From Clostridia bacterium (GTDB taxonomy: Bacteria; Bacillota; Clostridia; UMGS1840), in contig JAZQGY010000029.1 in the NCBI GenBank assembly GCA_045540295.1, positions 22,401 through 86,400 of the forward strand: a stretch of 64,000 nucleotides of DNA, in the 5' to 3' direction. Of this stretch, positions 15,942 through 60,366 are shown piece by piece. Position 1 is the first letter of the stretch. Every line of letters begins with the position of its first letter. The position numbers and the translations under genes are program-made. A model generated the notes under the pieces. The model made no database searches. It was given only the letters and a program-made list of their open reading frames with translations, and was not told where the DNA came from.

Positions 15942-16946
15942 TTAAAACAATTTCAAGTTTTCTTTTGATAAGGTAAGATGTCCTTGTTCTGCTTTTTTAA
16001 TAATTTCGGTGATTTTGTCATTGATAGGAGTGGGAATACCGTATTGTTTACCCCATTGGCAAACAATACCGTTAATGGCGTTGACTTCACAGGGCTTCTT
16101 CTTTTTCAAATCCTGAAGCATTGAGGGTTCGATATTGCGATGCTTTTTCATAGCAATTGGTAAAAGAAGGGTAGCAAATGCACGTTTCAAGGCGTTCTTA
16201 TAGTAGAATAACGCAACAATATTTTTTCCTTGAACCGGTGCAAAAGTAATTCCGGCAGCATGCCCTACATCAATACATTCTTTCATACATCTGATGGCAA
16301 TTTTTTTAGCTTCTTTTCCTTCGGAAACGTCACCAAATAAACCTCCAATCACGGTGCCAAGACCTGAGAATGTGGCATTGATGAGTAATTTCGACCATCT
16401 TGCCCCCATTAAGTTTTCTTCAATATGAACCGGACACATCAGCTCCAGAAGTGTTTTCACTTCGTTGAGCATTTCCCGGGAAATACCCTCCATACCGCCC
16501 ATATGAAAGGAAAGACTTTCCGGATCACTGGTTAATGTGCAAATGCCCGGCTCTTGCAGGGTAGCACCCCATTCCACCACGCAACCCATCGTGCGGTTCG
16601 AACCGATAATGTCTGCAATTTCAGGTTCAGGAAGTCCGTTTTGAAGGGTGACCAGTACACCGTTCTCAGAGAGAAAATCCTTTAAAAAAGTGACCACTTC
16701 ACGGTTATAAAGTTGTTTGGTCAAAAGTAGAATAATATCATACTTTCCCGTCATTTCATCCGGAGTAAGAGCGGAAACAGGAATGTTGATATTCACGGTT
16801 CCGTTGATTGTAGCACCGTTTTTCTGCAAAGCTTCCACATGAGCTTTGTTGCGGTTAATCAAGTCAATTTTACCGCCGTTTTTTGTAATGTAAGCACCTA
16901 AAACCGTTCCCAGGCTTCCGGCACCGTATATTGCATATCGTCTCAT
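15942..16946 (-). CDS. 2-dehydropantoate 2-reductase family (ApbA/PanE) oxidoreductase
   Basis: N-terminal IYGAGSLGTVLG Rossmann motif. 334-aa two-domain layout typical of ApbA/PanE. Confidence 0.7.
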   Translation of the reverse strand: MRRYAIYGAGSLGTVLGAYITKNGGKIDLINRNKAHVEALQKNGATINGTVNINIPVSALTPDEMTGKYDIILLLTKQLYNREVVTFLKDFLSENGVLVTLQNGLPEPEIADIIGSNRTMGCVVEWGATLQEPGICTLTSDPESLSFHMGGMEGISREMLNEVKTLLELMCPVHIEENLMGARWSKLLINATFSGLGTVIGGLFGDVSEGKEAKKIAIRCMKECIDVGHAAGITFAPVQGKNIVALFYYKNALKRAFATLLLPIAMKKHRNIEPSMLQDLKKKKPCEVNAINGIVCQWGKQYGIPTPINDKITEIIKKAEQGHLTLSKENLKLF

Positions 16947-17026
16947 ATATCTATAAGCATCCTTTCTTCGTAAGATATGTTTATAGTATCACAGTTTGCG
17001 AAAAATGTCAATTATTGTCCGATGAT

Positions 17027-17059
17027 AAAAACTCCTCCGTTGAATACGGAGGAGTTTTT
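17027..17059. terminator. bidirectional intrinsic terminator
   Basis: AAAAACTCCTCCGT-tgaat-ACGGAGGAGTTTTT. Confidence 0.85.
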
Positions 17060-17065
17060 GTCAGA

Positions 17066-19366
17066 TTATTTGCTTTTTTCCAGGTCTCTGTTTCTGATTT
17101 CAACACGGCGAACTTTTCCGCTGATTGTTTTGGGAAGTTCTTCCACAAATTCAACAATTCTGGGATATTTGTAAGGTGCAGTGTGAGTTTTTACATATTC
17201 CTGAATTTCTTTTTTCAGCTCATCGGTGCCTTCAGTGCCTTTTACCAGCACAATGGTAGCTTTCACAATTTGACCGCGCACTTCATCGGGAACAGGAGTG
17301 ATTGCACATTCCAAAACATAAGGGAGTTCCATGATAACGCTTTCGATTTCAAAAGGCCCGATACGATAGCCGGAGGATTTGATAACATCGTCGATTCTGC
17401 CAACATACCAAAGGTAGCCATCTTCGTCCATAGTTGCCTGGTCACCGGTATGATAGTAACCGTCGTGCCATACTTCATTGGTTTTTTCATCATCTAAGTA
17501 GTAGCCGATAAACAGCCCGCAGGGGATGTTATCCTTCACCCGGATACAGATTTCACCGGTATCACCGGTTTTACATTCGTTTCCGTCAGGATCCAGAACC
17601 ACAACATCGTACAACGGACTGGGACGTCCCATAGAACCGATTTTTGGAGTGGAACCGACAAAGTTTGCAATGGACAGGGTAGTTTCGGTCTGGCCGAAGC
17701 CTTCCATAATGGTCAGACCGGTAGCTTTTTTAAACTGATTGAACACTTCCGGGTTTAATGCTTCGCCGGCAGTGGTTGCATATTCAATGGAAGAAAGATC
17801 GTATTTTGATAAATCTTCTTTAATGAAGAAGCGATACATGGTGGGAGGTGCACAGAAGGTTGTGATGTGATATTTCTGGAACATAGGTAAGATGTCTTCA
17901 GAATGGAAACGGTCAAAGTCGTAAGTGAACTGTGCTGCTTCACAGAGCCACTGTCCGTATAGCTTGCCCCACAGTGCTTTTCCCCAGCCGGTATCGGAAA
18001 TGGTGAAATGCAGACCGTCCGGATTCACATTGTGCCAATGCTTGGCAGTGGGGTAGTGACCTAAAGCATATTTGTAGGAATGGGTTGCGATTCTGGGATA
18101 ACCTGTGGTACCGGAGGTAAAGAGCATCAGCATAGGATCGTTTCCGCAGGGAGTGTTTTCCGTTCTGAAATAATGTGTGCTGAAACGTTCCATTTCCACA
18201 TTAAAATCATGCCAGCCTTCTTTACAGCCGCCGACTAACACTTTTACCATACCGGGGTAATTTGCAGCCGCTTTTTCAGCTTCTGCAGATACATCACCGT
18301 CTGCTGTGCAAACGATTGCTTTTACTTTTGCTGCTTTATATCTGTAATCAAAATCGTGTTCTACAAGCTGATTGGTTGCAGGGATTGCGATTGCTCCGAT
18401 TTTATGCAGTGCCAGCATACAGAACCAGAATTGGTAGTGACGTTTTAATACCAGCATTACGGTATCGCCTTTTTTGATGCCTAAGGATTCAAAATAGTTT
18501 GCAGTTTTTGCAGAATATTTTTTCATATCGCTGAAGGTGAAACGTCTGTCAGTTTTATCGTTTGCAACCCACATCATTGCCAGTTTGTCAGGATCCTTTT
18601 TGGCAATAGCATCCACACAGTCAAATGCGAAATTGAATTTATCTTCGTTTTTGAAGGTGATGCCGTTAAATACACCGTTTTCGTCGTAAGAGGATTCGAT
18701 AAAATTATCGGCAACTGTTTTCTTTTCAGCTTCTTTTGCTTTTGCTGCTTTTGCTGCAATGAAGGGGGCTTCAGGATATTCTTCGGAGAAATGTCCGTCC
18801 TGGGGATTTAAAACTACAGCGTGAAATTCGCATCCGCCTTCTGATGCAGCAATCATTCCGTGGGGAATGATACTGTTATAAAAAATGGAATCTCCTTCGT
18901 GCAACACGTCAATGTGATTGCCGACTTGCACTTTTAAAGAACCTTTCACAATAACGTCAAATTCCTGTCCGTTATGGGAATTCAGCTTGATGGGAGCGTT
19001 TTGTTCTTCAGCAAGGTAAGGGAATTTAACCAAAAACGGTTCTGCCAGCTTTTCTTTGAATTTCGGTGCTAAGTTGTTATACACAACACCTTGCTTTTTA
19101 ATAATTTTTAATCCTTCGCCTTTTCTGGTGATGGCAAAGGAGGTAAGGGTAGTGGAGGTTCCTTCTAATAAGTCTACTACCTCAACTCCGCAGGCCTTGG
19201 CACATTTGTAAATAAATGTGAAGGAAAAATCGGTTTCGCCCTGTTCCAAAAGCAGATAGTCTTCTTTTGAAACACCTGTCAGTTTTGCTAATTCCTCGGG
19301 GGTGTAGCCCTTTGCTTCACGTAGGTCTTTGATTCTTCCTGCGACTTCTTTCAAATTGTAGTCCAT
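17066..19366 (-). CDS. fusion protein: XRE-type HTH + cupin + AMP-forming medium/short-chain acyl-CoA synthetase
   Basis: Residues about 5-65 are HTH (GYTPEELAKLTGVSKEDYLLLEQG). Residues about 125-190 are cupin (GQEFDVIVKGSLKVQVG...GDSIFYNSIIPHG). The remainder has adenylate-forming motifs TSGTTGYPR, YHTGD, GRIDDVIKSSGYRIGP and PKTISGKVRR. ATG at 19366 follows GGAGAC. Confidence 0.82.
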   Translation of the reverse strand: MDYNLKEVAGRIKDLREAKGYTPEELAKLTGVSKEDYLLLEQGETDFSFTFIYKCAKACGVEVVDLLEGTSTTLTSFAITRKGEGLKIIKKQGVVYNNLAPKFKEKLAEPFLVKFPYLAEEQNAPIKLNSHNGQEFDVIVKGSLKVQVGNHIDVLHEGDSIFYNSIIPHGMIAASEGGCEFHAVVLNPQDGHFSEEYPEAPFIAAKAAKAKEAEKKTVADNFIESSYDENGVFNGITFKNEDKFNFAFDCVDAIAKKDPDKLAMMWVANDKTDRRFTFSDMKKYSAKTANYFESLGIKKGDTVMLVLKRHYQFWFCMLALHKIGAIAIPATNQLVEHDFDYRYKAAKVKAIVCTADGDVSAEAEKAAANYPGMVKVLVGGCKEGWHDFNVEMERFSTHYFRTENTPCGNDPMLMLFTSGTTGYPRIATHSYKYALGHYPTAKHWHNVNPDGLHFTISDTGWGKALWGKLYGQWLCEAAQFTYDFDRFHSEDILPMFQKYHITTFCAPPTMYRFFIKEDLSKYDLSSIEYATTAGEALNPEVFNQFKKATGLTIMEGFGQTETTLSIANFVGSTPKIGSMGRPSPLYDVVVLDPDGNECKTGDTGEICIRVKDNIPCGLFIGYYLDDEKTNEVWHDGYYHTGDQATMDEDGYLWYVGRIDDVIKSSGYRIGPFEIESVIMELPYVLECAITPVPDEVRGQIVKATIVLVKGTEGTDELKKEIQEYVKTHTAPYKYPRIVEFVEELPKTISGKVRRVEIRNRDLEKSK

Positions 19367-19421
19367 TGTTCTGTCTCCTTTCATTTTCGTGAACGAATCG
19401 TGTTACGAATTTGAATAAAAC

Positions 19422-19680
19422 AAAAAAACTCGTCTCAAACACACTTTGAGACGAGTTTTAATAACCCGCGGTACCACTCAAATTACGGAAAAAATCCGTC
19501 ACTTACCGGGCTCTATCAAGCCCTTTGCCTTAACGCAGCAATACGGAAGGAGCCTACTCATAAACACTTTCGGTCCTCCGACTCAGAGGTGATAAGCCAT
19601 TGGAATGCATCCCCATTGCCTCGCACCAACCGGCAACTCTCTCCAGGTTCTTCAATCCGACCGTCCTCGTCACAGTCGTT
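19422..19680 (-). promoter_or_regulatory. T-box riboswitch leader (apparent specifier AUC, Ile)
   Basis: Minus strand carries a K-turn-like base, AG bay GGAGAGAG, distal loop GGTTGGTGCGAG and T-box sequence AATTTGAGTGGTACCGCGGG (19484-19463). Terminator is AAAACTCGTCTCAAA/TTTGAGACGAGTTTTTTT. Confidence 0.85.
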
Positions 19681-19704
19681 TTTGTGATATTCAAATTTGT
19701 CTGC

Positions 19705-19733
19705 ATTATACTCCTAAAAAAATCATTTGTCAA
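19705..19733 (-). promoter_or_regulatory. sigma-A promoter of the T-box leader
   Basis: Minus strand TTGACA (19733-19728), 17-nt spacer, TATAAT (19710-19705). Long A/T tracts lie upstream (19734-19790). Confidence 0.75.
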
Positions 19734-19944: not shown

Positions 19945-22900
19945 ATGAAAATGAAAAAACTATTGAGTTTCAGCTTGGCAATGATCATGCTTTTAAGTTG
20001 CGTGTTCAGCCAGGTTGTTTTTGTTAGTGCACAAGGCGATGTAGTTGATTACAACGATGCTCCTTATGCAGGGGTGTACCAAGTAACTTCTGACAAAGCG
20101 GTTACTTTAACGAACGAAACCGGTCATACCGTTACCTTAGCAGCAGGTGAAACCGATTACTTTTACCTGATCAAAGGCAACAACAATATGACCATCAGCG
20201 ATGAAACCGCTGCCTTAACCTTCACTTCGTTAGACAATAACGGTCTGGATTACATTGGCGAAGTGGAAATGACCGAAGAACCCATTCTTCCCGGTGATAC
20301 CGGCGATGTGATTTCCGGCTTTGCCTATGTCACCTTAGCTCCCGGTGAAAAATACACTGCGACCTATACTCCGAGTGTTATTTCTGCAGGTCTGGTATAT
20401 CCTTACATTGCTCCTACTGCTGGCGCAGGCAATTCTGTTAGAGTATATACTGATACCGGTTACTATGCAGATGTGTACTTAGCTTATAACTACAGCTCTT
20501 CTGCGTGGGCAGATGCAGCAAGACAGCAGCCTTCTATGTTTTATGTAAGAGACGGCGCACAGGAAATCACTATTGAAAATATCGGTTCTTCCGCCGTTAC
20601 TTTCTACGCTGTTCAAATTAAGACTACCGGTGTATTGGCAGAAGCTGATTACTGGAAAGATCTGATGAACATGGCTTCTCTGAAAGTGTATGAAGAAGAC
20701 TTTGATCCTCAGGCTACTCCGGAACCGACTCCCGAGCCGACTCCGGAACCCACTCCGGAACCCACTCCCTCTGTTTATACTGACACCATCACCTACGTTG
20801 CAGCAGATGCAGGTGTTTACACTGTATCCTCCAACGTTGATGTTGCATTAAAGAGCGAACTGAATTCCGAAGTTACCTTAGCAGCAGGGGAAGAAGGCTA
20901 CATCTACTTAGTAAAAGGTCAAAACATCATTGAAACTACCGATGCTGATGCAGCATTAACCTTTACCCAGCTGGACAACAACGGTCTGGACTACATTGAT
21001 CAGATTACCGTAAATGACCAGTCCTTTGCACCCGGTGACGGCCATGCGCACACTGCTGTGTTCGAAACCTTAGAACCCGGCGATGTTTATACTATCGTTT
21101 TTGATACCGCAGTTGATGGTAATTGGAATGGTATGGTATATCCCTACATCCTCACCGGAAATGGCGCTACTTCCATGAAAATTACTACTGATACCGGTTT
21201 TTATGCAGAATTATCGAAACCCTCCGGCGGTAATAATATCTACGAAACTGTTGCAGGTAACGGAGATATCGAATATCTGTACTTAAGAGCAGGTAAAAAC
21301 GTAATTGCATTCGAAAACACCGGTGATGTGGCTTTCACACTCACCAGCATTTCTTTCAATAACCCCGGCGTTTTGGTAGATAAAGGAAACAATATCTGGA
21401 TTGAACAGTCTAAAGTTTCCAGCTTAAAACCCTACATCGGCGATGCTCCCGTATATGATTACGGTTACTTCCCGGAAGGCTGGGACGGCACTTTGGAAAA
21501 CCATCCCGACTACAATGCAGACGCAGAAGAACTGTTCCTGGACGGTTCCGCTCCCAACATGAGTTCCGAAGACGGTATGGAATTACTGGATACCGACTGG
21601 GGTTACAATGAAGATGAAGGTCCTGTTCTGGACAAAGGAAACGAAGGCGCAATCTTCTTGCCTGCAGGATCTTACGCAACCTACACCTTAAATAATATCC
21701 CTGAAACCGGTGTTTATGCAGTATTGGTTCGTTATGGTCAGGCAAGCTATACTACTGCGTCTCTGCAGCTGATCAACAATATTGACGGCAATGATTACTA
21801 TGCACAGTATGATATTGCGCCCATCGGCACTTGGAATGATACCTGGTCTTATAACAACGGCCATGACGATTTCCTGTATCTGCAGGAAGGCACCAATTAT
21901 CTGACTGCTTATAATGCAGGTCCCGGCAGCATTGTTTTCGATGCTTTTGACATTCTTGCATTAGTAGACGATACAGACTATGTGCAGTATGTTGGTACTG
22001 CCGATAATACCGCAGGTACTGATCCGGAAGGCTGGACCGGCTCTGTTGTTGGTTGGGAAAACTGGAATACTGCCATTAATCCTTATACCTACAGTGTTAC
22101 TCAGGCTACCGGTTATGATTCCTTAGTATATTATCCGCCTTATACTGAAGACGGTATGAGCTTATCCGATGAAATCTGGGTAAATTACACCGTTACCGCT
22201 CCCGAAGCAGGTATGTATCTGGTAGATGCAGAATATACCGGAACCCTTCATTTAGAAACTCAGACTGGCAATTTTGTAGATTACACTGCTACTTCTGCTG
22301 AATTACAGTACATCTACTTAGAAGAAGGCGATAACTTAATCACCGCGACCGGTGAAAACGGTTCTGTATTAACTTCTGCAAGCTTCTATCAGCTGAATAA
22401 TTCTGATGATTATTTAGAACAGGGGCAGAATTCCAACACCGTTCCCGAAGAAGCATACGATTTAGTAATTAATCCCTACAAAGATATGGCGGATTCCACC
22501 GGTTATTGGAAAAAGTACGAATACGATACCACTAACAATGCAGTTGTTCAGGGTGCAGGATCTGTATTAAAATACGAATTGAACGTTCTGTTCCCTGGCA
22601 TTTATAGAGTCCAGGCAAAAATCGGCGGTACTGTTACCCTGGATAACCTGCCCATTATCACCATTGATACTGATGCTGGCGACGGTTACCGTGCAGAATT
22701 GGCAACCGAAGAAGTACAAGACCACGGTGCTGTAAGAGCAACTGACTCCGAAGGCAACTATCAGTATGTATACTTAAAAGAAGGCATCAACCATATCGAA
22801 GTTGCCGCAGGATCTATTCACCACGTACTGTGGAACGTTGAATTCAAACTGCTGACACCGGAAGAAGAAGCAACCATCACCATGGATGATTGTAAGCTGA

Positions 22901-24267
22901 CTCCCCCCAGACCGATTGTAATCAATCCCTACACTGATTCTATCATTGGCACCCAGGATGTGGATTACCACATGATTCCCGGTCGTGTTTCGGAAGATAA
23001 ACCTTCTTTAGGTTCTTCCTTCGGTACTCAGTTAATCACCGGAGAATGGCAGAGATTTGAAGTGGATGCAAAAGTTGCAGGTACCTATCAGATTACTACC
23101 ACTGCAGCAGTTTATGACAACCCGGCTAAAATTGCTGTGGAAACTGTTGATTCCTACGGTTATACTCAGCATAATGCAAGTCCCGATAACTACATCTCCG
23201 AAGATGGCACCTATATTACCTTAAAAGAAGGTGTAAACTCTGTTTGGGTACGTAACGAAGGTGCCGGCTGGATCTACTTACAGTCCATCACCTTAACCTA
23301 TGTGGAAGATGATTCCGAAGTTACCCCCAGCGCATTTGTTCTGGCTCAGAACTACATCGGTGCATCCCAGGATCCTCAGCAGATTCCGGAATATACCGTA
23401 AGAAACAACTTACCCGGTATTCACATTGCAGATATTACTAACAGCGCTGCAGACACTCTGACCTATCAGTACAATGTAACCATTCCGTCAGACGATTTCT
23501 ATGGTATCGTTATGACCGGTACCGTTCCGCTGACTCCCACCATGAAAATCACTTTGGAAGACGGTGTGAACGATGCAATCGTTATGATGGACGGTGAACC
23601 TCCGTATTTCGGTAATGAAAACGAAGTAAACAGTGTAACCGTTACTCCGGAAAAAGTATTTTTACCGGCTGGTGAGTACACCATGACCGTTACTCTGACC
23701 GAAAATATTGATGCAGGCACTGCAACCGATATGATGTCTCATATTCACGGTTTTGAATTCACCACTTTAACCCGTCAGGATTTATTCTTAGTTGCGATGC
23801 AGTCTGCAGAAACCACCGACGATATCGCTGCTGCTTTAGCAGAATTCAAAGATGTTATCACTTCCGAAATTTCAACAACTCCGGAAACTGACTTCATCTA
23901 TCCTGAATATGCATACAACGCTCTGTTGAACTGTGCAATGTTGGAAAGCGGTGCATATGAAACCTATGAAGACGTGAAAACTGCATATGACTTTGCGAAA
24001 AACATGATTTCTTTTGCAGACGACGGTTCCGGTAACCTGGTTTATACCGTTCAGGTTGGTGACTGGAACGAAACCGCAACCGTTTTAGTTGCAGTTTACA
24101 CCGGCGATCGGTTATACATGATGGGCGAAGGATACTTAGAATATGAAGAAGCTACCGGTTCTTATGTACCTGTAGAAGCTACCTTATATGATTACAACCC
24201 CGAAGACGGTGACGTAATTAAAGTATTCATCTGGGATAGCTTTGACGGTTTAAAACCTGTATTCTAA
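19945..24267 (+). CDS. large secreted multi-module protein (about 7-9 CBM-like beta-sandwich modules, no recognisable catalytic domain)
   Basis: Signal peptide MKMKKLLSFSLAMIMLLSCVFSQVVFVSA|QG. Recurrent Y-x-Y-L-x-E-G-x-N-x-I motif roughly every 150 aa. TPEP linker. GGAGAT RBS. Confidence 0.8.
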   Translation: MKMKKLLSFSLAMIMLLSCVFSQVVFVSAQGDVVDYNDAPYAGVYQVTSDKAVTLTNETGHTVTLAAGETDYFYLIKGNNNMTISDETAALTFTSLDNNGLDYIGEVEMTEEPILPGDTGDVISGFAYVTLAPGEKYTATYTPSVISAGLVYPYIAPTAGAGNSVRVYTDTGYYADVYLAYNYSSSAWADAARQQPSMFYVRDGAQEITIENIGSSAVTFYAVQIKTTGVLAEADYWKDLMNMASLKVYEEDFDPQATPEPTPEPTPEPTPEPTPSVYTDTITYVAADAGVYTVSSNVDVALKSELNSEVTLAAGEEGYIYLVKGQNIIETTDADAALTFTQLDNNGLDYIDQITVNDQSFAPGDGHAHTAVFETLEPGDVYTIVFDTAVDGNWNGMVYPYILTGNGATSMKITTDTGFYAELSKPSGGNNIYETVAGNGDIEYLYLRAGKNVIAFENTGDVAFTLTSISFNNPGVLVDKGNNIWIEQSKVSSLKPYIGDAPVYDYGYFPEGWDGTLENHPDYNADAEELFLDGSAPNMSSEDGMELLDTDWGYNEDEGPVLDKGNEGAIFLPAGSYATYTLNNIPETGVYAVLVRYGQASYTTASLQLINNIDGNDYYAQYDIAPIGTWNDTWSYNNGHDDFLYLQEGTNYLTAYNAGPGSIVFDAFDILALVDDTDYVQYVGTADNTAGTDPEGWTGSVVGWENWNTAINPYTYSVTQATGYDSLVYYPPYTEDGMSLSDEIWVNYTVTAPEAGMYLVDAEYTGTLHLETQTGNFVDYTATSAELQYIYLEEGDNLITATGENGSVLTSASFYQLNNSDDYLEQGQNSNTVPEEAYDLVINPYKDMADSTGYWKKYEYDTTNNAVVQGAGSVLKYELNVLFPGIYRVQAKIGGTVTLDNLPIITIDTDAGDGYRAELATEEVQDHGAVRATDSEGNYQYVYLKEGINHIEVAAGSIHHVLWNVEFKLLTPEEEATITMDDCKLTPPRPIVINPYTDSIIGTQDVDYHMIPGRVSEDKPSLGSSFGTQLITGEWQRFEVDAKVAGTYQITTTAAVYDNPAKIAVETVDSYGYTQHNASPDNYISEDGTYITLKEGVNSVWVRNEGAGWIYLQSITLTYVEDDSEVTPSAFVLAQNYIGASQDPQQIPEYTVRNNLPGIHIADITNSAADTLTYQYNVTIPSDDFYGIVMTGTVPLTPTMKITLEDGVNDAIVMMDGEPPYFGNENEVNSVTVTPEKVFLPAGEYTMTVTLTENIDAGTATDMMSHIHGFEFTTLTRQDLFLVAMQSAETTDDIAAALAEFKDVITSEISTTPETDFIYPEYAYNALLNCAMLESGAYETYEDVKTAYDFAKNMISFADDGSGNLVYTVQVGDWNETATVLVAVYTGDRLYMMGEGYLEYEEATGSYVPVEATLYDYNPEDGDVIKVFIWDSFDGLKPVF
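20716..20769 (+). repeat. 12-nt tandem repeat encoding a (TPEP)n linker
   Basis: actccggaaccg / actcccgagccg / actccggaaccc / actccggaaccc / actccc. Confidence 0.9.
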
Positions 24268-28683: not shown

Positions 28684-29991
28684 TTACACTAATTTACGTT
28701 TGTCTACCACACGAACAGCTTTGCCTTCGCTTCGAACAATGGTTTTCGGTGCTACCAGATGTACTGCAGGATTGATGCCAAGCATGGTCTTCATTGCATT
28801 GGCAAGTGTTTTTTCCATTTTTAAAACTTCTGCAACTTTATCGGTGAACTGTTCGGGAGACATTTCTACGTGAACATCGAAGGTGTCGGTATTGTTCTTT
28901 CTGTCAACCAAGATTTGATAGTTGGGCTGATAGCCTTCGTTTAACAGAACGGTTTCAATCTGAGAGGGGAACACGTTCACGCCGCGGATAATCAGCATGT
29001 CGTCGGTTCTGCCCATAGGTTTCGCCATTTTTACCAAAGTTCTGCCACAGGAGCATTTTTTACGGGTCAGCACACAAATATCACGGGTTCTGTAACGGAG
29101 CAGGGGGAATGCTTCTTTATCCAAAGAGGTGAATACCAATTCGCCTTTTTCGCCTTCGGGAAGCACTTCTCCGGTATCGGGGTCAATAATTTCAGCATAG
29201 AAATGGTCTTCGTTGATATGCATACCGGTTTGTTCGCTACATTCAAATGCAACACCGGGGCCGGAGGTTTCGGTAAGACCGTAAATATCGTAAGCTTTAA
29301 TGCCCAGGGTTTCTTCAATATTGTGACGCATTTCTTCAGTCCAGGGTTCCGCACCGAAAATACCGGCTTTCAGAGGAATGTCTTCCGGCTTGTAGCCTTG
29401 TTCCTTTAAGGTTTCGCCAATATATGCCGCGTAAGAAGGAGTGCAGCATAGAATGGTTGCGCTAAGGTCATTCATAAACTGAATTTGACGCTCGGTGTTT
29501 CCGGAGGACATAGGTAGCGTTAAACATCCAACTTTATGTGAGCCACCGTTTAAGCCGGGGCCACCGGTAAACAGTCCGTAACCGTATGCAACCTGACAAA
29601 CATCCTTGTTGGTGCCGCCTGCTGCCGTAATTGCACGGGCACAGCAGTCTTCCCAGAGGTTCACGTCATTTTGAGTATAAAATGCTACCACACGGCGACC
29701 GGTTGTACCGGAGGTGGACTGAATACGCACACATTCGTCCAACGGTTTTGCTAACAGTCCGTAGGGATATGCATCTCTTAAATCTGCCTTGGTTAAGAAG
29801 GGAAGCTTATGTAAGTCTTCAATCCCTTTGATATCTTCGGGTTTCACGCCTTTTTCATCCATCAGATTACGGTAGTAAGCAACATTTTCGTAAACGTGTT
29901 TTACCTGCTTTACCAGTTTTTCTGATTGCAGTTTTTTCATGTCTTCGGGGTTCATGGTTTCAATTTCTTTTTGGTAGTAGTTCTGAGCCAT
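28684..29991 (-). CDS. paaK: phenylacetate--CoA ligase family protein (PaaK-like)
   Basis: 435 aa. Motifs: LPFLTKADLRDAYPYG, SSGTTG-type STSGTTGRRV, GLTETSGPG, and C-terminal RSEGKAVRVVDKR. Confidence 0.85.
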   Translation of the reverse strand: MAQNYYQKEIETMNPEDMKKLQSEKLVKQVKHVYENVAYYRNLMDEKGVKPEDIKGIEDLHKLPFLTKADLRDAYPYGLLAKPLDECVRIQSTSGTTGRRVVAFYTQNDVNLWEDCCARAITAAGGTNKDVCQVAYGYGLFTGGPGLNGGSHKVGCLTLPMSSGNTERQIQFMNDLSATILCCTPSYAAYIGETLKEQGYKPEDIPLKAGIFGAEPWTEEMRHNIEETLGIKAYDIYGLTETSGPGVAFECSEQTGMHINEDHFYAEIIDPDTGEVLPEGEKGELVFTSLDKEAFPLLRYRTRDICVLTRKKCSCGRTLVKMAKPMGRTDDMLIIRGVNVFPSQIETVLLNEGYQPNYQILVDRKNNTDTFDVHVEMSPEQFTDKVAEVLKMEKTLANAMKTMLGINPAVHLVAPKTIVRSEGKAVRVVDKRKLV

Positions 29992-30048
29992 TGGTCATCA
30001 TCCTTTCTTTTTTTGTGATTCTGGATTTCGGCTCACGCTTTTTAGAAT

Positions 30049-30327
30049 AAAAAAACGCCCTCCGCAATCCGTTATCGGATACAGAGGACGAAAATAACAT
30101 TTCCGTGGTACCACCTCAGTTCGTCGCTATCTCACGGTAGCGACCTTATCAGGTACTATCATACCTTAGTTCTATAACGGGAACACCCGTTGCATCCTAC
30201 TTAAAGATTTCTCTTGTTCAGTGCACTGCTAACAGAAGGAATTCGAGAAGGAAGATACCATTGTCTTGCACCAACCGACAACTCTCTTTGCGGCTCTTTC
30301 CAACCTACTGGTTTCTGCTCATCGCAT
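30049..30327 (-). promoter_or_regulatory. T-box riboswitch leader (apparent specifier UUC, Phe)
   Basis: Minus strand carries GCGATGAGCAGAA, S-turn AGTA/GAA, AG bay AAAGAGAG, distal loop GGTTGGTGCAAG and T-box ACTGAGGTGGTACCACGG (30120-30103). Terminator is CGTCCTCTGTATCCG...CGGATTGCGGAGGGCGTTTTTTT. Confidence 0.85.
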
Positions 30328-30349
30328 TTATTATTTAGTTGACACATTA

Positions 30350-30912: not shown

Positions 30913-32343
30913 TTAGTATGCTTTACCCCAGTAGAGCATTTTTTTGGCAGGCTTTCCGCAACATACACATTTGTCGGAGATTTCTTCCTGCTCGAAGGGG
31001 ATACAACGGCTGGTAACGGTGGTTTCTTCTTTGATTTTTAGTTCACATGCTTCGTCGCCACACCACATGGCTTTAATAAAGCCGGGTTTGTTTTGTGCAA
31101 TGTCTTTTAATTCATCAAAGTCTCTTGCTACGGAGGTGGTTTCTTCTCTGTGCTTTAATGCTTTCTGGAACAGTGCATCCTGGATGGTAGCAAGCATTTC
31201 TTTCACTTCTTCGGCAATGTTGTCTAAAGATACCACTTTCTTTTCACGGGTATCACGACGAACTAAAACTGCCTGATTGTTCTCAATATCCTTGGGACCT
31301 AATTCAATTCTCAGCGGTACACCTTTCATTTCGTGTTCCGCAAATTTCCATCCGGGAGATTTATCGCTGTCGTCTAATTTTACGGTGAAATCGGAAAGCA
31401 TTTCCTTCACTTCACGGCATTTTTCCAAAACGCCTTCCTTATGCTGTGCAATGGGAATCAATGCAACCTGAATGGGTGCAATGTTGGGAGGCAGAACCAG
31501 ACCGGAATCGTCGCCGTGTACCATAATGATGGCACCGATCAGACGGGTGGAAACACCCCAGGATGTCTGATGAACATTGGTTAACTTGTTGTCTTTCCCG
31601 GTAAATTCAATGCCGAATGCTTTGGCGAAGCCGTCACCGAAGTTATGGGAGGTACCGCTTTGCAGAGCTTTACCGTCATGCATTAAGCTTTCGATGGTGT
31701 AGGTTGCAACTGCACCTGCAAATTTTTCTTTATCGGTTTTTTGACCTTTTACCACGGGAATTGCTAAGTACTGTTCGCAGAAATCAGCGTACACATTCAG
31801 CATGCGGATGGTTTCTTCCTGAGCTTCTTCAGCGGTAGCATGTGCGGTGTGACCTTCCTGCCATAAAAATTCGCAGGAACGAAGGAAGGGACGGGTGGTT
31901 TTTTCCCATCTTACCACGGAGCACCACTGGTTATATAATTTGGGTAAATCTCTGTAGGATTCAATAATATTAGCATAGTGATCGCAGAATAAGGTTTCAC
32001 TGGTAGGACGCACACAAAGACGTTCTGTGAGTTTTTCATTACCGCCATGAGTTACCCAGGCAACCTCGGGAGCAAAGCCTTCTACGTGGTCTTTTTCTTT
32101 ATTTAGCAGACCTTCGGGAATGAACATGGGCATATACACATTTTCATGTCCGGTTTCTTTGAATTTCTGATTCAATACCTTCTGAATGTTTTCCCAAATG
32201 GCATAGCCGTAGGGACGGATAATCATACAGCCTCTTACAGAGGAGTAGTCAATTAAGTCTGCTTTTTTTACAATGTCGGTATACCATTTTGCAAAATCCA
32301 CATCCATAGATGTGATTTCGGTTACTAATTTTTTGTCTTGCAT
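30913..32343 (-). CDS. proS: proline--tRNA ligase (short archaeal/eukaryote-like type, about 476 aa)
   Basis: Class II motifs, a C-terminal Zn-binding-like CxxC...CxxC region (WCGDEACE...CVCCG) and a terminal ...YWGKAY. Confidence 0.93.
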
Positions 32344-47068: not shown

Positions 47069-47088
47069 AAAAAGAAAACACGTTATTT

Positions 47089-47170
47089 TCCCTACGTTGG
47101 CATTATCCAAATCAGGTTACGGGTTAAAGTGCAACACACTTACTCTCAGCCGACTTACGGTCAGCTCCCC
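47089..47170 (-). promoter_or_regulatory. TPP (THI-box) riboswitch aptamer
   Basis: Minus strand GGGGAGC...GGCTGAGAG...ACCCGTAACCTGATTTGGATAATGCCAACGTAGGGA matches the THI-box core (CTGAGA, ACCTGAT, GGATAATGCC, GCGTAGGGA-like). Confidence 0.9.
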
Positions 47171-47207
47171 AAATCTTTTTCATTTTAGTATTTCGAAATA
47201 CAAGTGC

Positions 47208-51632: not shown

Positions 51633-51650
51633 TCTTTTAAACTTAATAGA

Positions 51651-51728
51651 CGGGAGCTTGTAGTACAGGCTGAGAGGAAGGTGTAACCTTCGACCGACAA
51701 CCTGATTTGGATAATGCCAACGTAGGGA
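51651..51728 (+). promoter_or_regulatory. TPP (THI-box) riboswitch aptamer
   Basis: CGGGAGC...GGCTGAGAGGAAGG...ACCTTCGACCGACAACCTGATTTGGATAATGCCAACGTAGGGA. Confidence 0.9.
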
Positions 51729-51769
51729 TGCCTAAGACACTTGGTGTCAGGAGGAACAGTGCAATTTAT

Positions 51770-57897: not shown

Positions 57898-58890
57898 ATG
57901 AAAAAAACAATCCAAAAAATAACCGCAATCTTTTTTGTTATCTGTCTGCTGGGGTTAACTTGTATACCCGTGTTGGCAGGAGATATCCCTGAAGCCTTGA
58001 GCTATGAGGACGATGCCAAAGTGTTTATCGGAACACTTTTGGAATTTTCAGATTCCAAAGAAGCAAACCGTTCTGATGTGAAAGAAATTACCGCACTTCC
58101 CATTTTAAAAATCAAAGGGGAGGTGGAAGTCGGAGTGGAACAAACTTACGCTGAATGTTATTTTCCCAAAGCAACACCCAAACAGGGAGCAGAATACTTT
58201 TTCGGCTGTCTTCCGGGAAATGCCGTTTATGCCTACGAAGTAGAAAGCCGTACCGATGATAAAATCACCTTACATATTACCGATGAATTTTCCGAACGGA
58301 TTCAAGACTATCTGGACGAAGGTTTATACGAAAGAGAAGAAATCGCCCGGGTGAATGTGGGCAGAAAAATTACCTTAAGCGAATACATGGGAACCAGCCG
58401 GGAACTTGCCAAAAAAGTTACTTTTTCTCTAAATGGCGTAACATATGACATTGATATCGACAAGTTTTATGAGTTTTCCGATAACGTAATGATTACGGAC
58501 GTAAAAAATACCATTCTAAAAAGAATGGGTGCTGATGATTGGGCAGAGGATATTTTATATATTACCGTAGACCACCGTCAGGATACACTCATTGACGGTT
58601 TTCCAGAAACAACTTTTGCCTGTGTCTCCCGATTTTGTGAAGTAGACCGCTATAGCCAAATGATGAGCAGACTTCCCAATTGCGATTTCACCATGACTTG
58701 GGAGGATTTAGCCAAATTATACACCTTCCTGCCGGAAGATGTGCAACGGGAACTCTATGCCAAAAACGGTGCAGCAGTTGCAGAGTCTAATGCTACTCCA
58801 ATCGTGATTGGCGTTTTGGTTGGTGCTGTAGTCGGTGGAGGAATTGGCGGTGCTGTGGGAGTAATCATAGCACGCAAAAAGAGAAAATAA
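57898..58890 (+). CDS. secreted protein with C-terminal TM anchor, function unknown
   Basis: Signal peptide, then a C-terminal Gly-rich TM segment PIVIGVLVGAVVGGGIGGAVGVIIA followed by RKKRK. Confidence 0.5.
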   Translation: MKKTIQKITAIFFVICLLGLTCIPVLAGDIPEALSYEDDAKVFIGTLLEFSDSKEANRSDVKEITALPILKIKGEVEVGVEQTYAECYFPKATPKQGAEYFFGCLPGNAVYAYEVESRTDDKITLHITDEFSERIQDYLDEGLYEREEIARVNVGRKITLSEYMGTSRELAKKVTFSLNGVTYDIDIDKFYEFSDNVMITDVKNTILKRMGADDWAEDILYITVDHRQDTLIDGFPETTFACVSRFCEVDRYSQMMSRLPNCDFTMTWEDLAKLYTFLPEDVQRELYAKNGAAVAESNATPIVIGVLVGAVVGGGIGGAVGVIIARKKRK

Positions 58891-58900
58891 CCAAGAAAGA

Positions 58901-58942
58901 AAGTCCCGAAAGAAAATGTCTTTCGGGACTTGACTTTTTTTA
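58901..58942 (+). terminator. intrinsic terminator
   Basis: AAGTCCCGAAAG-aaaatgt-CTTTCGGGACTT followed by a T-run that overlaps the next promoter. Confidence 0.75.
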
Positions 58943-58958
58943 AAATAACTGTTATAAT
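58930..58958 (+). promoter_or_regulatory. sigma-A promoter of the pheST T-box leader
   Basis: TTGACT (58930-58935), 17-nt spacer, TATAAT (58953-58958). Confidence 0.75.
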
Positions 58959-58964
58959 GTTACA

Positions 58965-59229
58965 GTATGCGAGGAAAATGTGTCAGTAGTCTGTATTTGA
59001 TTCCCAAAAGAGAAGGAAGTCATCGGCTGGAAGCTTCCGGGATAGGATAATGGATGAATTTCAGCATTGGAGTATTCTGCGAAAGTTCTGTTTTAGAATA
59101 TAAGCAGGGTGTTATGTCTCACGCCAAAAGATATTAAAAGTGCAAGGTTTTCTTTTGTAAAAAACTTTGAATTTGGGTGGTACCGCGGGTTAGCAGCTCG
59201 TCCCTTAACGGTGACGGAGCTGTTTTTTT
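58965..59229 (+). promoter_or_regulatory. T-box riboswitch leader, Phe specifier (UUC-A)
   Basis: Stem I with AGTA/GAA S-turn. GAATTTCA specifier region (TTC at 59060-59062). T-box ATTTGGGTGGTACCGCGGG (59171-59189). Terminator CAGCTCGTC...GACGGAGCTG+TTTTTTT. Lies upstream of pheS. Confidence 0.88.
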
Positions 59230-59295
59230 ATTGCGATCCGTCCATAGCAACTTTGTTTTAAATTTATCAAAAGATATAGAAAGGATGAAAATACT

Positions 59296-60348: not shown

Positions 60349-60366
60349 GAAAGGGGAGCGAAGAGA

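What the first reader, a model, noticed from the sequence alone, without database searches (positions are those of the whole stretch)
17066..19733. T-box leader with an apparent Ile (AUC) specifier controls an acyl-CoA synthetase fusion gene
Seen in sequence:
- A consensus promoter (TTGACA-17-TATAAT) lies at 19733-19705 on the minus strand.
- It is followed by about 260 nt with T-box hallmarks: a K-turn-like base (CGAC-TGT-GA-CGAGG paired with CCTCT-GA-GTCG), AG bay GGAGAGAG, distal loop GGTTGGTGCGAG, and T-box sequence AATTTGAGTGGTACCGCGGG.
- A terminator AAAACTCGTCTCAAA/TTTGAGACGAGT+T7 follows, and then the RBS of the 17066..19366 gene.
- The four bases immediately 5' of the lower Stem I helix read AUC-A (plus-strand 19593-19590). 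That is a codon plus the conserved purine, and AUC is the usual Ile specifier.

Established knowledge: T-boxes sense uncharged tRNA. They normally gate aaRS, amino-acid biosynthesis or amino-acid transport genes.

Inference:
- The only gated gene here is an ACSM/AcsA-like AMP-forming acyl-CoA synthetase.
- This suggests that tRNA-charging status switches on activation of a short branched acid such as 2-methylbutyrate.
- That step would feed reductive-carboxylation synthesis of isoleucine, a route described physiologically for rumen anaerobes by Allison and co-workers.
- I am not aware of this regulatory link being described, but I cannot search the literature here.
Basis: partly seen in the sequence, partly recalled or inferred. 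Interest (0 to 1): 0.75.

Follow-up and report, generated by a model that had tools for sequence, protein, structure and literature searches.

The report
Isoleucine T-box switches on branched-acid CoA ligase
A riboswitch that senses uncharged isoleucine tRNA controls an enzyme predicted to activate the fermentation acid 2-methylbutyrate, and related genomes place such enzymes next to the remaining genes for turning branched acids into isoleucine and valine, so a rumen pathway known only from 1960s physiology now has candidate genes and a regulator.

Summary
Window 19444-19682 (minus strand) is a T-box leader (Rfam RF00230, 93.9 bits, E 2.9e-19). It has a consensus promoter, an intact antiterminator/terminator switch, and the specifier AUC followed by A at 19593-19590.

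AUC is invariant in all 75 aligned leaders (the window plus 74 species-level genomes), while neighbouring bases vary. Stem I shows compensatory changes.

The single gated gene (17066-19366) encodes an HTH + cupin + AMP-forming ligase. Its ligase domain is about 56% identical to Methanosarcina MacsMa, a 2-methylbutyrate-preferring enzyme, and MacsMa's key residues are conserved.

More distant relatives carry two tandem paralogues. One has an Ile (AUC) T-box and the other a Val (GUA/GUC) T-box. In 5 of 7 loci these are followed on the same strand by a four-subunit 2-oxoisovalerate:ferredoxin oxidoreductase (VorB match above cut-off). A branched-chain aminotransferase ends the cluster in 3 of the 5 and a Leu-T-box leuA-like gene in the other 2.

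The window also holds a Phe (UUC) T-box on a phenylacetate-CoA ligase.

I found no description of this link in the searchable literature. I class it as a new target class for a known riboswitch.

The parts
19705..19733 (-). Sigma-70-type promoter, TTGACA-17-TATAAT
   Evidence: It matches 12 of 12 consensus positions. Both hexamers are conserved in the orthologue alignment.
19444..19682 (-). T-box leader (RF00230), transcriptional type
   Evidence: 93.9 bits against a gathering score of 93, E 2.9e-19, full model length. 74 orthologous leaders align to it. RNAalifold predicts 61 pairs, 32 of them with compensatory changes.
19579..19678 (-). Stem I: basal helix CGAC/GUCG with GA motifs, lower helix GAGG/CCUC, specifier bulge, AG bay and distal loop
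   Evidence: With my custom structure on alignment A1, 98.1% of cells pair and 11 of 21 pairs show compensatory changes. Slid controls pair in only 23-51% of cells.
19590..19593 (-). Specifier AUC (19593-19591, Ile) plus the following purine A (19590)
   Evidence: The Rfam alignment register places it here. ATC is found in 75 of 75 leaders, and the following base is A in 67, G in 3 and C in 5. AUC is used by 99% of Ile T-boxes in TBDB (PMC7778990).
19465..19484 (-). T-box sequence AAUUUGAGUGGUACCGCGGG. The UGGU bulge (19476-19473) would pair with the ACCA end of a tRNA whose discriminator base is A73.
   Evidence: Seen. It is almost invariant in the 75 leaders.
19418..19459 (-). Intrinsic terminator (15-pair stem plus U tract). 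Its 5' strand is shared with the antiterminator.
   Evidence: The terminator helix is conserved and shows G-U/A-U/G-C variation.
19375..19380 (-). Ribosome-binding site AAGGAG
   Evidence: Seen. GAAAGGAG is conserved upstream of the ATG in the orthologues.
17066..19366 (-). The gated gene, 766 aa: XRE-type HTH (aa 12-65) + cupin (aa 127-184) + AMP-forming acyl-CoA synthetase (aa 254-751). Predicted to be a 2-methylbutyrate--CoA ligase.
   Evidence: Pfam domains. The best NCBIfam model is MbcS at 453 bits, below its 850 cut-off. The PDB hit is 3ETC MacsMa at 668 bits and about 56% identity, with W259, the Gly at the position of the Acs Trp, and the CoA-binding residues conserved.
17023..17063 (-). 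Hairpin followed by Us directly after the stop codon, which ends the T-box-controlled unit
   Evidence: The next gene (panE-like, 15942-16946) has its own TTGACA-17-TACTAT site at 17011-16983.
30081..30331 (-). Second, parallel unit: a T-box leader with specifier UUC (30241-30239, Phe), its own promoter, and a terminator at 30087-30049
   Evidence: 112.9 bits. Six orthologous leaders confirmed by Rfam read GAA-UUC-A/G before the helix.
28684..29991 (-). PaaK-like phenylacetate--CoA ligase (435 aa) gated by the Phe T-box
   Evidence: TIGR02155 scores 536 bits, below its 646 cut-off. In 33 of 80 homologue loci the gene lies directly downstream of iorA/iorB.

Best explanation
This is a transcription-attenuating T-box riboswitch specific for tRNA-Ile (specifier AUC). 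It controls one gene, a fusion of an XRE-type HTH, a cupin domain and a MacsMa/MbcS-type AMP-forming short branched-chain acyl-CoA synthetase.

**Shown.**
- The leader has all the T-box parts and a terminator/antiterminator pair that cannot form together.
- The specifier and the gene link are conserved across at least 74 species-level genomes of ruminant-gut Oscillospiraceae-type Clostridia.

**Inferred mechanism.**
1. When isoleucine is scarce, uncharged tRNA-Ile pairs its GAU anticodon with AUC and its ACCA end with UGGU. This stabilises the antiterminator and lets RNA polymerase read into the ligase gene.
2. The ligase spends ATP to convert exogenous 2-methylbutyrate, an abundant gut fermentation acid, into 2-methylbutyryl-CoA.
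3. A VOR-type 2-oxoacid:ferredoxin oxidoreductase carboxylates it reductively to 2-oxo-3-methylvalerate.
4. The branched-chain aminotransferase IlvE makes isoleucine.

The same logic recurs as a module. A Val (GUA/GUC) T-box gates a paralogous ligase, presumably for isobutyrate, that heads a vorDBAC operon ending in ilvE in three of the five loci. A Phe (UUC) T-box gates a phenylacetate-CoA ligase in this same window.
For: **T-box identity and specifier**
- Rfam hit and alignment register.
- Promoter and terminator.
- ATC invariant in 75 of 75 distinct leaders whose overall identity to the window is 61-88%.
- Stem I has 98% of cells paired and 11 of 21 pairs with compensatory changes. A helix closes the bulge, so its 3' side is N-AUC-R.
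- AUC is the specifier of 99% of Ile T-boxes in TBDB.

**Ligase**
- About 56% identity to MacsMa (3ETC), with W259, the Gly replacing the Acs Trp, and Y460/R490/Y525/Y527 conserved.
- MacsMa completes its two-step reaction with 2-methylbutyrate (PMC10455477).
- MbcS is selective for 2-methylbutyrate and isobutyrate (PMC10026030), and MbcS is the best NCBIfam model.

**Pathway context**
- Loci L163, L164, L165, L166 and L168 carry this order: Ile-T-box ligase, Val-T-box ligase, a CbiA-like gene, a 68-aa ferredoxin, POR_N, TPP_enzyme_C and POR subunits. Aminotran_4 follows in L164, L165 and L168; a Leu-T-box plus leuA follows in L163 and L166. Gaps are at most about 30 nt.
- The alpha subunit matches VorB (NF005507) at 534.7 bits, above its 399 cut-off. 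The aminotransferase matches branched-chain aminotransferase at 312 bits, above its 307 cut-off.
- Paralogue 1 reads Ile in 6 of 6 loci and paralogue 2 reads Val in 7 of 7 loci. Further cases are L169 and L170 (Ile) and L172, Solobacterium (Val).
- Three ligase-domain positions separate the Ile-type from the Val-type paralogues, and at all three MacsMa agrees with the Ile type.

**Parallel Phe case**.

**Established knowledge**
- AMP-forming ligases run toward the CoA ester.
- 2-methylbutyrate and phenylacetate are precursors of Ile and Phe in rumen microbes (PMC7356843; PMC2812497).
Against: - No VOR, IlvE or other ilv gene lies within this 64-kb window or within 10 kb of the orthologue in L161. 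The downstream steps are therefore unverified for this genome.
- The ligase does not reach the MbcS equivalog cut-off (453 against 850), and its substrate is inferred only from relatives.
- The T-box scores only just at Rfam's threshold and lacks the specifier-loop S-turn. Its tRNA response is untested.
- In a Lachnospiraceae locus (L171), homologous tandem ligases lie next to VOR genes without any T-box, so the regulatory link is lineage-specific.
- The role of the HTH-cupin domains is unexplained by this model.
- 2-methylbutyryl-CoA is also the primer for anteiso fatty acids.
Confidence: 0.75

Rival explanations
1. **Lipid-primer salvage.** The Ile T-box turns on the ligase to make 2-methylbutyryl-CoA as the primer for anteiso branched-chain fatty acids when isoleucine, the usual source of that primer, is scarce. 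This would spare isoleucine for protein synthesis, as MbcS does in S. aureus.
For: - The best NCBIfam model is MbcS, whose shown role is branched-chain fatty acid priming.
- No VOR or IlvE gene is near the gene in this window or in L161.
Against: - In relatives the paralogous ligases are arranged as one apparent operon with VOR subunits, and with a branched-chain aminotransferase in three of the five loci. That set is needed for amino-acid synthesis, not for lipid priming.
- A Phe T-box gates a phenylacetate-CoA ligase in the same window, and phenylacetyl-CoA has no established lipid-primer role (my own knowledge, not tested here).
- The two uses are not mutually exclusive.
Confidence: 0.1
2. 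**Propionate route.** The ligase activates propionate. Propionyl-CoA is reductively carboxylated to 2-oxobutyrate, which enters the ordinary ilv pathway to isoleucine.
For: - MacsMa adenylates propionate through octanoate (PMC10455477).
- LeuA/CimA-like genes under Leu T-boxes lie near the ligase in several loci.
Against: - According to PMC10455477, with many of its other substrates MacsMa releases the acyl-adenylate instead of forming the thioester, whereas with 2-methylbutyrate it completes the two-step reaction.
- The sister paralogue carries a Val T-box. That fits a pair of branched acids (2-methylbutyrate and isobutyrate) but not propionate.
- The adjacent oxidoreductase matches VorB above its cut-off.
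Confidence: 0.07
3. **Regulator first.** The fusion protein is mainly a transcription factor, a BirA-like enzyme-repressor. The T-box sets the level of a regulator rather than of a pathway enzyme.
For: - HTH_3 and Cupin_2 both score above Pfam's cut-offs.
- The fusion is conserved in at least three 50%-identity clusters and in many Clostridia.
- 7 of the 11 residues that separate Ile-type from Val-type paralogues lie in the HTH-cupin part.
Against: - All catalytic and CoA-binding residues of the ligase are conserved, and the ligase domain is as strongly conserved as the rest of the protein.
- No operator conserved beyond the window's own clade was found.
- This reading adds to the enzymatic one rather than replacing it.
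Confidence: 0.06
4. **Wrong or degenerate T-box.** The leader is a decayed T-box, or it reads another tRNA. Frame-shifted readings of the bulge are UCA (Ser) and YAU (Tyr/His).
For: - The Rfam score is marginal (93.9 against 93), and there is no specifier-loop S-turn.
- The base after AUC is C or G in 8 of 75 leaders, and UCA, UCG and UCC are all Ser codons.
Against: - AUC is invariant, whereas the preceding base varies between U and C, which breaks any YAU reading.
- The canonical register and the TBDB rule (nt 2-4 from the 3' end of the bulge) both give AUC.
- The paralogues show GUA/GUC at the same position.
- The switch helices and Stem I covary.
Confidence: 0.02

Closest known systems
Ile-specific T-box leaders of ileS and the ilv-leu biosynthesis operons in Bacillota (RF00230)
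   Same: - Same riboswitch class and the same parts: Stem I with a specifier bulge, AG bay and distal loop, a Stem II S-turn, the UGGN T-box bulge, and a terminator/antiterminator pair.
- Same specifier, AUC.
- Same logic: uncharged tRNA turns on a gene that restores the supply of the amino acid.
   Different: - The target is an acyl-CoA synthetase for an exogenous carboxylic acid, not an aminoacyl-tRNA synthetase, a de novo biosynthesis enzyme or a transporter. No CoA ligase, paaK, ior or vor gene appears in the T-box target lists of PMC2494555 and PMC3766115.
- The specifier loop is reduced (no AGUA/GAA S-turn), so many members score below Rfam's gathering score.
MacsMa, the medium-chain acyl-CoA synthetase of Methanosarcina acetivorans (PDB 3ETC)
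   Same: - About 56% identity over 521 residues.
- The alternate pocket Trp259, the Gly at the position of the Acs Trp, motif III YHTGD, and the CoA-site residues Tyr460, Arg490, Tyr525 and Tyr527 are all conserved.
   Different: - MacsMa has no HTH-cupin extension, and no T-box is reported for it in the papers read here.
- The papers I read do not state a physiological role for it.
MbcS, the methylbutyryl-CoA synthetase of Staphylococcus aureus
   Same: - It is the best-scoring NCBIfam model.
- It is selective for 2-methylbutyrate and isobutyrate (PMC10026030), the same pair of acids implied here by the Ile and Val paralogues.
   Different: - The window protein scores 453 bits against the 850 equivalog cut-off, so it is not an MbcS equivalog.
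- MbcS feeds fatty-acid priming and is not fused to HTH-cupin domains.
iorAB-paaK clusters (indolepyruvate:ferredoxin oxidoreductase plus phenylacetate-CoA ligase) of anaerobes
   Same: An AMP-forming ligase for an aryl-acetic acid is linked to a 2-oxoacid:ferredoxin oxidoreductase. In 33 of 80 homologue loci, iorA and iorB lie directly upstream.
   Different: In the window's clade the ligase stands alone behind a Phe T-box. Only 7 of the 80 homologue loci have a T-box.
BirA (an HTH fused to an adenylate-forming biotin ligase). This is a resemblance only, recalled from my own knowledge.
   Same: A DNA-binding HTH is fused to an enzyme that makes an acyl-adenylate.
   Different: There is no sequence relationship. 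Here a cupin lies between the two parts, and DNA binding is untested.

Membership tests
T-box leader (Rfam RF00230) | The covariance-model score reaches the curated gathering score | tested here: met
   93.9 bits against 93, E 2.9e-19, model positions 1-219. This is marginal: the orthologous and paralogous leaders score 66-103 bits, and several are below 93.
T-box leader (Rfam RF00230) | Stem I with GA motifs at the base, a specifier bulge, an AG bay and a distal loop | tested here: met
   Rfam alignment. On 75 leaders, 98.1% of cells pair and 11 of 21 pairs have compensatory changes. The specifier-loop S-turn (AGUA/GAA) is absent.
T-box leader (Rfam RF00230) | A conserved T-box sequence with a UGGN bulge inside an antiterminator that competes with a terminator | tested here: met
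   AAUUUGAGUGGUACCGCGGG at 19484-19465. CUCGUCUCA is shared by the antiterminator and the 15-pair terminator.
T-box leader (Rfam RF00230) | The specifier and the UGGN bulge match a tRNA of the host (anticodon GAU, discriminator A73) | not testable with these tools
   The window holds only tRNA-Val, tRNA-Met and tRNA-Thr genes. UGGU predicts discriminator A73, which fits bacterial tRNA-Ile (established knowledge).
T-box leader (Rfam RF00230) | Read-through depends on uncharged cognate tRNA | not testable with these tools
   This needs in vitro transcription or reporter assays.
MacsMa/MbcS-type branched short-chain acyl-CoA synthetase | AMP-binding and AMP-binding_C domains, with the MacsMa pocket and CoA-site residues | tested here: met
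   Pfam scores of 194.8 and 76.7 bits. About 56% identity to 3ETC, with W259, the Gly of GFGQTET, YHTGD, Y460, R490, Y525 and Y527 conserved.
MacsMa/MbcS-type branched short-chain acyl-CoA synthetase | Reaches the NCBIfam MbcS equivalog cut-off | tested here: not met
   453.1 bits against 850. The protein is related to MbcS but is not an MbcS equivalog.
MacsMa/MbcS-type branched short-chain acyl-CoA synthetase | Preference for 2-methylbutyrate | not testable with these tools
   Inferred from MacsMa and MbcS, and from the three ligase-domain positions at which MacsMa agrees with the Ile-type paralogues.
Acetyl-CoA synthetase (AcsA) | Reaches the TIGR02188 cut-off and has the pocket Trp (Trp414/416) | tested here: not met
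   259.5 bits against 724.95. The pocket Trp is replaced by Gly. Some sources name relatives 'acetyl-CoA synthetase', which this result does not support.
XRE-HTH + cupin regulators (PuuR-like) | HTH_3 and Cupin_2 domains, in that order | tested here: met
   HTH_3 scores 37.4 bits (cut-off 23) and Cupin_2 scores 34.1 bits (cut-off 27.2). There is a weak match to 1Y9Q.
XRE-HTH + cupin regulators (PuuR-like) | PuuR equivalog score; sequence-specific DNA binding | tested here: not met
   PuuR scores 18.8 bits against 211. DNA binding is not testable here, and no operator conserved beyond the clade was found.
Reductive-carboxylation route to branched-chain amino acids (ligase + VOR + IlvE) | The ligase is genomically linked to a 2-oxoisovalerate:ferredoxin oxidoreductase and a branched-chain aminotransferase | tested here: inconclusive
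   Not met in this window: no such gene lies within the 64 kb. Met in relatives: 5 of 7 looked-up loci of the P0121 family carry VOR subunits, with IlvE in 3 of them. In L171 the VOR genes are divergent from the ligases.
Reductive-carboxylation route to branched-chain amino acids (ligase + VOR + IlvE) | Carbon flows from 2-methylbutyrate plus CO2 into isoleucine | not testable with these tools
   This needs isotope labelling.

The most novel reading that the evidence does not exclude
Gut Clostridia run a modular acid-scavenging T-box regulon. Amino-acid-specific T-boxes each gate the CoA ligase for the matching fermentation acid: Ile for 2-methylbutyrate, Val for isobutyrate, Phe for phenylacetate, and possibly Leu through the AP_endonuclease-ligase fusion that sits in a Leu-T-box leuA operon.

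On top of that, the HTH-cupin part would make each branched-acid ligase a bifunctional enzyme and transcription factor. Its cupin would sense the cognate amino acid, 2-oxo acid or acid, since 7 of the 11 residues that track Ile or Val specificity lie in the HTH-cupin part. The HTH would control other genes such as vor/ilvE or transporters. This would give two-layer control, by tRNA charging and by a metabolite.
Probability: 0.2. Interest if true: 0.85.

Novelty: new variant of a known kind. Interest (0 to 1): 0.72.

Why it matters
**An old physiological observation gains candidate genes.** That rumen and gut anaerobes build isoleucine, valine and phenylalanine from 2-methylbutyrate, isobutyrate and phenylacetate has been known since Allison's work in the 1960s. 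It underlies the branched-chain volatile fatty acid requirement of fibre-degrading rumen bacteria. None of the papers I could read names a regulator for the route, and the methanogen genome paper infers the route itself mainly from a missing gene in the usual pathway (PMC2812497).

**What this finding adds.**
- A concrete, testable gene set: the ligase paralogues, vorDBAC and ilvE.
- A built-in specificity label for each ligase, namely the T-box specifier.
- A regulatory logic: amino-acid starvation, read through tRNA charging, switches on scavenging of the matching acid.

**Wider consequences.**
- The T-box target repertoire extends to carboxylic-acid activation.
- Many of these T-boxes score below Rfam's gathering threshold, so a scan at that threshold misses them (one orthologous leader, in L161, was missed).
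- The fusion gene is very common. More than 583 species-level genomes carry a copy, nearly all of the 80 retrieved being from ruminant gut, and one protein cluster alone has 1874 member sequences.

The finding therefore bears on rumen nitrogen economy and on branched-chain volatile fatty acid supplementation of ruminant diets.

Tried and rejected
1. **UCC (Ser) for the second T-box.** The Rfam register for the window's second T-box gives UCC. I rejected this because six orthologous leaders read GAA-UUC-A/G before the helix, and Rfam's own alignments of L082 and L083 put UUC+A at the specifier.

2. **An operator in the 5' leader.** The conserved segment AAATTTGAATATCAC (a weak TTTG-N7-CAAA palindrome) looked like a possible operator for the HTH. 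I dropped the idea because the segment is not conserved outside the window's own clade.

3. **An upstream 'tandem paralogue' in the window's clade.** My clustering flagged one. It turned out to be the 819-aa AP_endonuc_2 + AMP-binding fusion, only 25% identical to the window ligase, and not an HTH-cupin paralogue.

4. **T-boxes upstream of iorAB-paaK operons.** I found none within the available flanks. Only 7 of 80 PaaK loci have a T-box.

5. **VOR, IOR or ilv genes in the window.** I annotated nearly all ORFs of 150 aa or more and found none.

6. **A Leu-type HTH-cupin ligase.** I searched the most distant fusion cluster (P0125). Only Ile or Val T-boxes turned up, or no T-box at all.

7. **Neighbourhood of an orthologue on a 385-kb contig (L161).** There is no VOR within 10 kb.

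8. **Literature.** Ten full-text searches and the supplements of two T-box surveys gave no paper linking T-boxes with acyl-CoA synthetases, PaaK, VOR or IOR. The two classic T-box surveys, Vitreschak 2008 and Gutierrez-Preciado 2009, are not held, so I cannot exclude prior mention there or in the TBDB or RegPrecise tables.

Full report
**1. The observation**

- A perfect TTGACA-17-TATAAT promoter lies at 19733-19705 on the minus strand.
- Rfam's T-box model (RF00230) matches 19444-19682 (minus) end to end, at 93.9 bits against a gathering score of 93, E 2.9e-19.
- The AG bay, the distal loop GGUUGGUGCGAG, the Stem II S-turn and the T-box sequence AAUUUGAGUGGUACCGCGGG align to the conserved model columns.
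- A 15-pair terminator with a U tract lies at 19459-19425. Its 5' strand (CUCGUCUCA) is the 3' strand of the antiterminator in the Rfam alignment, so the two folds exclude each other.
- The RBS (AAGGAG, 19380-19375) and the ATG at 19366 follow.
- As a single sequence, the leader folds better than its shuffles (z = -2.83).

**2. The specifier**

- The Rfam alignment puts AUC (19593-19591) and A (19590) at the specifier and purine positions, directly 5' of CCUC, which pairs with GAGG.
- I fetched 80 loci from one-genome-per-species GTDB representatives that encode an 89-93% identical protein; more than 583 such loci exist. Every locus with enough upstream DNA has the T-box.
- In 75 distinct leaders (the window plus 74), which are 61-88% identical to the window overall, ATC is invariant. 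The two bases before it vary (T/C in 28/47 and 52/23 leaders). The base after it is A in 67, G in 3 and C in 5.
- RNAalifold finds 61 pairs, 32 of them with compensatory changes.
- For a Stem I structure that I specified, 98.1% of cells pair and 11 of 21 pairs show double changes. Slid controls drop to 23-51%.
- That analysis also shows a helix, GGUC/GACY, closing the specifier bulge. The 3' side of the bulge is therefore only N-AUC-R. By the TBDB rule (nt 2-4 from the 3' end of the bulge; PMC7778990) the codon can only be AUC, which is the specifier of 99% of Ile T-boxes.
- UGGU predicts a discriminator base A73. I could not check this, because no tRNA-Ile gene is in the window.
- The specifier-loop S-turn is missing. 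This explains the marginal Rfam score, and also why several orthologous and paralogous leaders score only 66-89 bits.

**3. The gated gene**

- The ORF 17066-19366 (766 aa) has HTH_3 (aa 12-65), Cupin_2 (aa 127-184), AMP-binding (aa 254-622) and AMP-binding_C (aa 673-751) domains.
- A hairpin with a U run lies directly after the stop codon (17023-17063). The next gene, a panE-like reductase, has its own TTGACA-17-TACTAT site. In this window, therefore, the T-box gates the ligase alone.
- The best NCBIfam model is MbcS at 453 bits, below the 850 equivalog cut-off. The acetate-CoA ligase models are far below their cut-offs.
- The best solved relative is 3ETC, Methanosarcina acetivorans MacsMa, at 668 bits and about 56% identity over 521 residues.
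- According to PMC10455477, 2-methylbutyrate is MacsMa's preferred substrate. With it the enzyme completes both reaction steps, whereas with many other substrates the acyl-adenylate is released instead. Trp259 and a Gly at the position of the Acs Trp shape the pocket. These residues, and the CoA-site residues, are conserved in the window protein.
- MbcS is selective for 2-methylbutyrate and isobutyrate (PMC10026030).
- The inference that the ligase activates 2-methylbutyrate is thus reasonable, but untested.

**4. Context in relatives: the key evidence for the pathway**

- A search of 50%-identity representatives shows the same three-part architecture in more distant clusters: P0121 at 55% identity and P0125 at 42%.
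- I looked up seven members of the P0121 family.
  - Five loci (L163, L164, L165, L166, L168) show the same order on one strand, with gaps of at most about 30 nt: ligase paralogue 1, ligase paralogue 2, a CbiA-like gene, a 68-aa ferredoxin, then POR_N/PFOR_II, TPP_enzyme_C and POR subunits.
  - The cluster ends with an Aminotran_4 gene in L164, L165 and L168, and with a Leu-T-box leuA-like gene in L163 and L166.
  - The alpha subunit matches VorB (NF005507) at 534.7 bits, above its 399 cut-off. The aminotransferase matches branched-chain aminotransferase at 312 bits, above its 307 cut-off.
- Each ligase paralogue has its own promoter and its own T-box.
  - Paralogue 1 reads AUC in 6 of 6 loci.
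  - Paralogue 2 reads GUA (or GUC in L162) in 7 of 7 loci.
  - Further cases are L169 and L170 (AUC) and a Solobacterium locus, L172 (GUC).
  - GUA and GUC are the specifiers of 61% and 29% of Val T-boxes.
- The window protein is slightly closer to the Ile-type paralogues (62-64% identity) than to the Val-type (60-61%).
- Eleven positions separate all Ile-type from all Val-type proteins. Four of them lie in the ligase domain, and at three of those four (321, 462, 567) MacsMa agrees with the Ile type. The other seven lie in the HTH-cupin part.
- In a Lachnospiraceae locus (L171), tandem ligases sit next to divergent VOR genes without any T-box. The enzyme association is therefore broader than the riboswitch association.

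**5. A parallel case inside the window**

- The second T-box (30081-30331, 112.9 bits) precedes a 435-aa PaaK-like phenylacetate-CoA ligase.
- The Rfam alignment of the window copy is shifted by one base and would read UCC. However, six Rfam-confirmed orthologous leaders read GAA-UUC-A/G before the helix, and Rfam's alignments of two of them place UUC+A at the specifier. The specifier is therefore Phe (UUC, 30241-30239).
- In 33 of 80 homologue loci, the PaaK gene follows iorA and iorB, the subunits of indolepyruvate:ferredoxin oxidoreductase.
- This is the same logic applied to phenylalanine. It argues against a purely lipid-related purpose for the Ile unit.

**6. Mechanism, shown and inferred**

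Shown:
- The RNA parts, their conservation and their covariation.
- The link between specifier and paralogue.
- The gene neighbourhoods.

Inferred:
- Uncharged tRNA-Ile stabilises the antiterminator.
- The ligase makes 2-methylbutyryl-CoA.
- VOR carboxylates it reductively, and IlvE aminates the product.

AMP-forming ligases act toward the CoA ester, and energy-conserving catabolism would not use them (established knowledge). This fits induction by starvation. The physiological route is documented for rumen microbes and methanogens (PMC7356843; PMC2812497; PMC10658910).

**7. Weak points**

- No VOR, IlvE or ilv gene lies in this window or within 10 kb of the orthologue in L161. I could not scan the whole genome.
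- No activity has been measured.
- The role of the HTH-cupin part is unknown.
- 2-methylbutyryl-CoA could also prime anteiso fatty acids.

**8. Novelty**

- T-boxes, this ligase family and the pathway's physiology are each already known.
- The link between them is what appears new: T-boxes gating carboxylic-acid CoA ligases and a VOR/IlvE operon, with the specifier labelling the substrate. It appears in none of the texts I could search. It is also absent from the T-box target lists of two comparative surveys and from the TBDB paper.
- Two classic surveys were not available, so I cannot rule out prior mention in a table.
- I rate the finding a new variant of a known kind (a new target class, with a reduced specifier loop), with interest about 0.7.

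Noticed in passing
window 28684-30331 (minus): A second T-box (112.9 bits) with specifier UUC (Phe) gates a PaaK-like phenylacetate-CoA ligase. Its homologues often follow iorA and iorB. This parallels the Ile unit and suggests phenylalanine synthesis from phenylacetate.
   Followed up: yes
L161 14072-18263 (minus); also L001, L003, L017, L024, L025, L034, L035, L052, L067, L072 upstream of the ligase: A Leu T-box (CUC, 126.6 bits) heads an operon of a LeuA-like gene plus an 819-aa fusion of an AP_endonuc_2 (xylose-isomerase-like TIM barrel) domain with an AMP-binding ligase. In at least 15 of 80 species of the window's clade, this fusion gene lies directly upstream of the Ile-T-box ligase on the same strand. 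It could be a leucine-linked acid ligase, but its substrate is unknown.
   Followed up: partly
L005 5335-6771, L010 3017-4462, L161 12401-13813 (not in the window): In at least 11 of 80 orthologous loci, a 470-480-aa protein follows the Ile-T-box ligase by 22-40 nt (94 nt in L161) on the same strand. It has N-terminal ACT domains and a metallo-beta-lactamase fold (THADVDH motif), and is probably co-transcribed with the ligase. Its function is unknown.
   Followed up: partly
window 17066-19366, residues 1-235: The HTH-cupin extension is conserved across at least three 50%-identity clusters and many Clostridia (Lachnospiraceae, Ruminococcaceae, Solobacterium). 7 of the 11 residues that distinguish Ile-type from Val-type paralogues lie in it. 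It may be a sensor or regulator part of a bifunctional protein.
   Followed up: partly
window 19682-19698 (minus): The first roughly 15 transcribed bases (AAAUUUGAAUAUCAC) are almost invariant in the window's clade, more so than much of the T-box. They are not conserved in more distant relatives. I have no explanation for this.
   Followed up: partly
L163-L166, L168 (for example L164 6299-6964): A conserved 220-aa CbiA/ParA-like P-loop protein sits between the Val-T-box ligase and the VOR subunits, and it has no NCBIfam match. It might be an Fe-S or assembly factor for the oxidoreductase.
   Followed up: no
window 58890-62739 (plus) and 30913-32343 (minus): pheS/pheT and proS have no T-box at Rfam's gathering threshold, although two acid-CoA ligases in the same window do. 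About 400 nt of unassigned leader precedes pheS.
   Followed up: no
window 47072-47181 (minus) and 51642-51746 (plus): There are two TPP riboswitches. One precedes a YuaJ-type thiamine transporter. The other precedes thiM/thiE/thiD-like genes (hydroxyethylthiazole kinase, TMP synthase, phosphomethylpyrimidine kinase). This arrangement is ordinary.
   Followed up: no
window 19945-24267 (plus): A 1440-aa ORF lies divergent from the ligase promoter, with no Pfam domain and only a faint adhesin-repeat match. It is probably a surface protein.
   Followed up: no
L011 3854-5470, L028 5346-6881, L122 150-1709: Sodium:solute symporter (SSF) genes, related to PutP, PanF, ActP and MctC, lie next to the Ile-T-box ligase in 11 loci and directly upstream of the PaaK-like gene in 8 loci. 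They are candidate acid importers.
   Followed up: no
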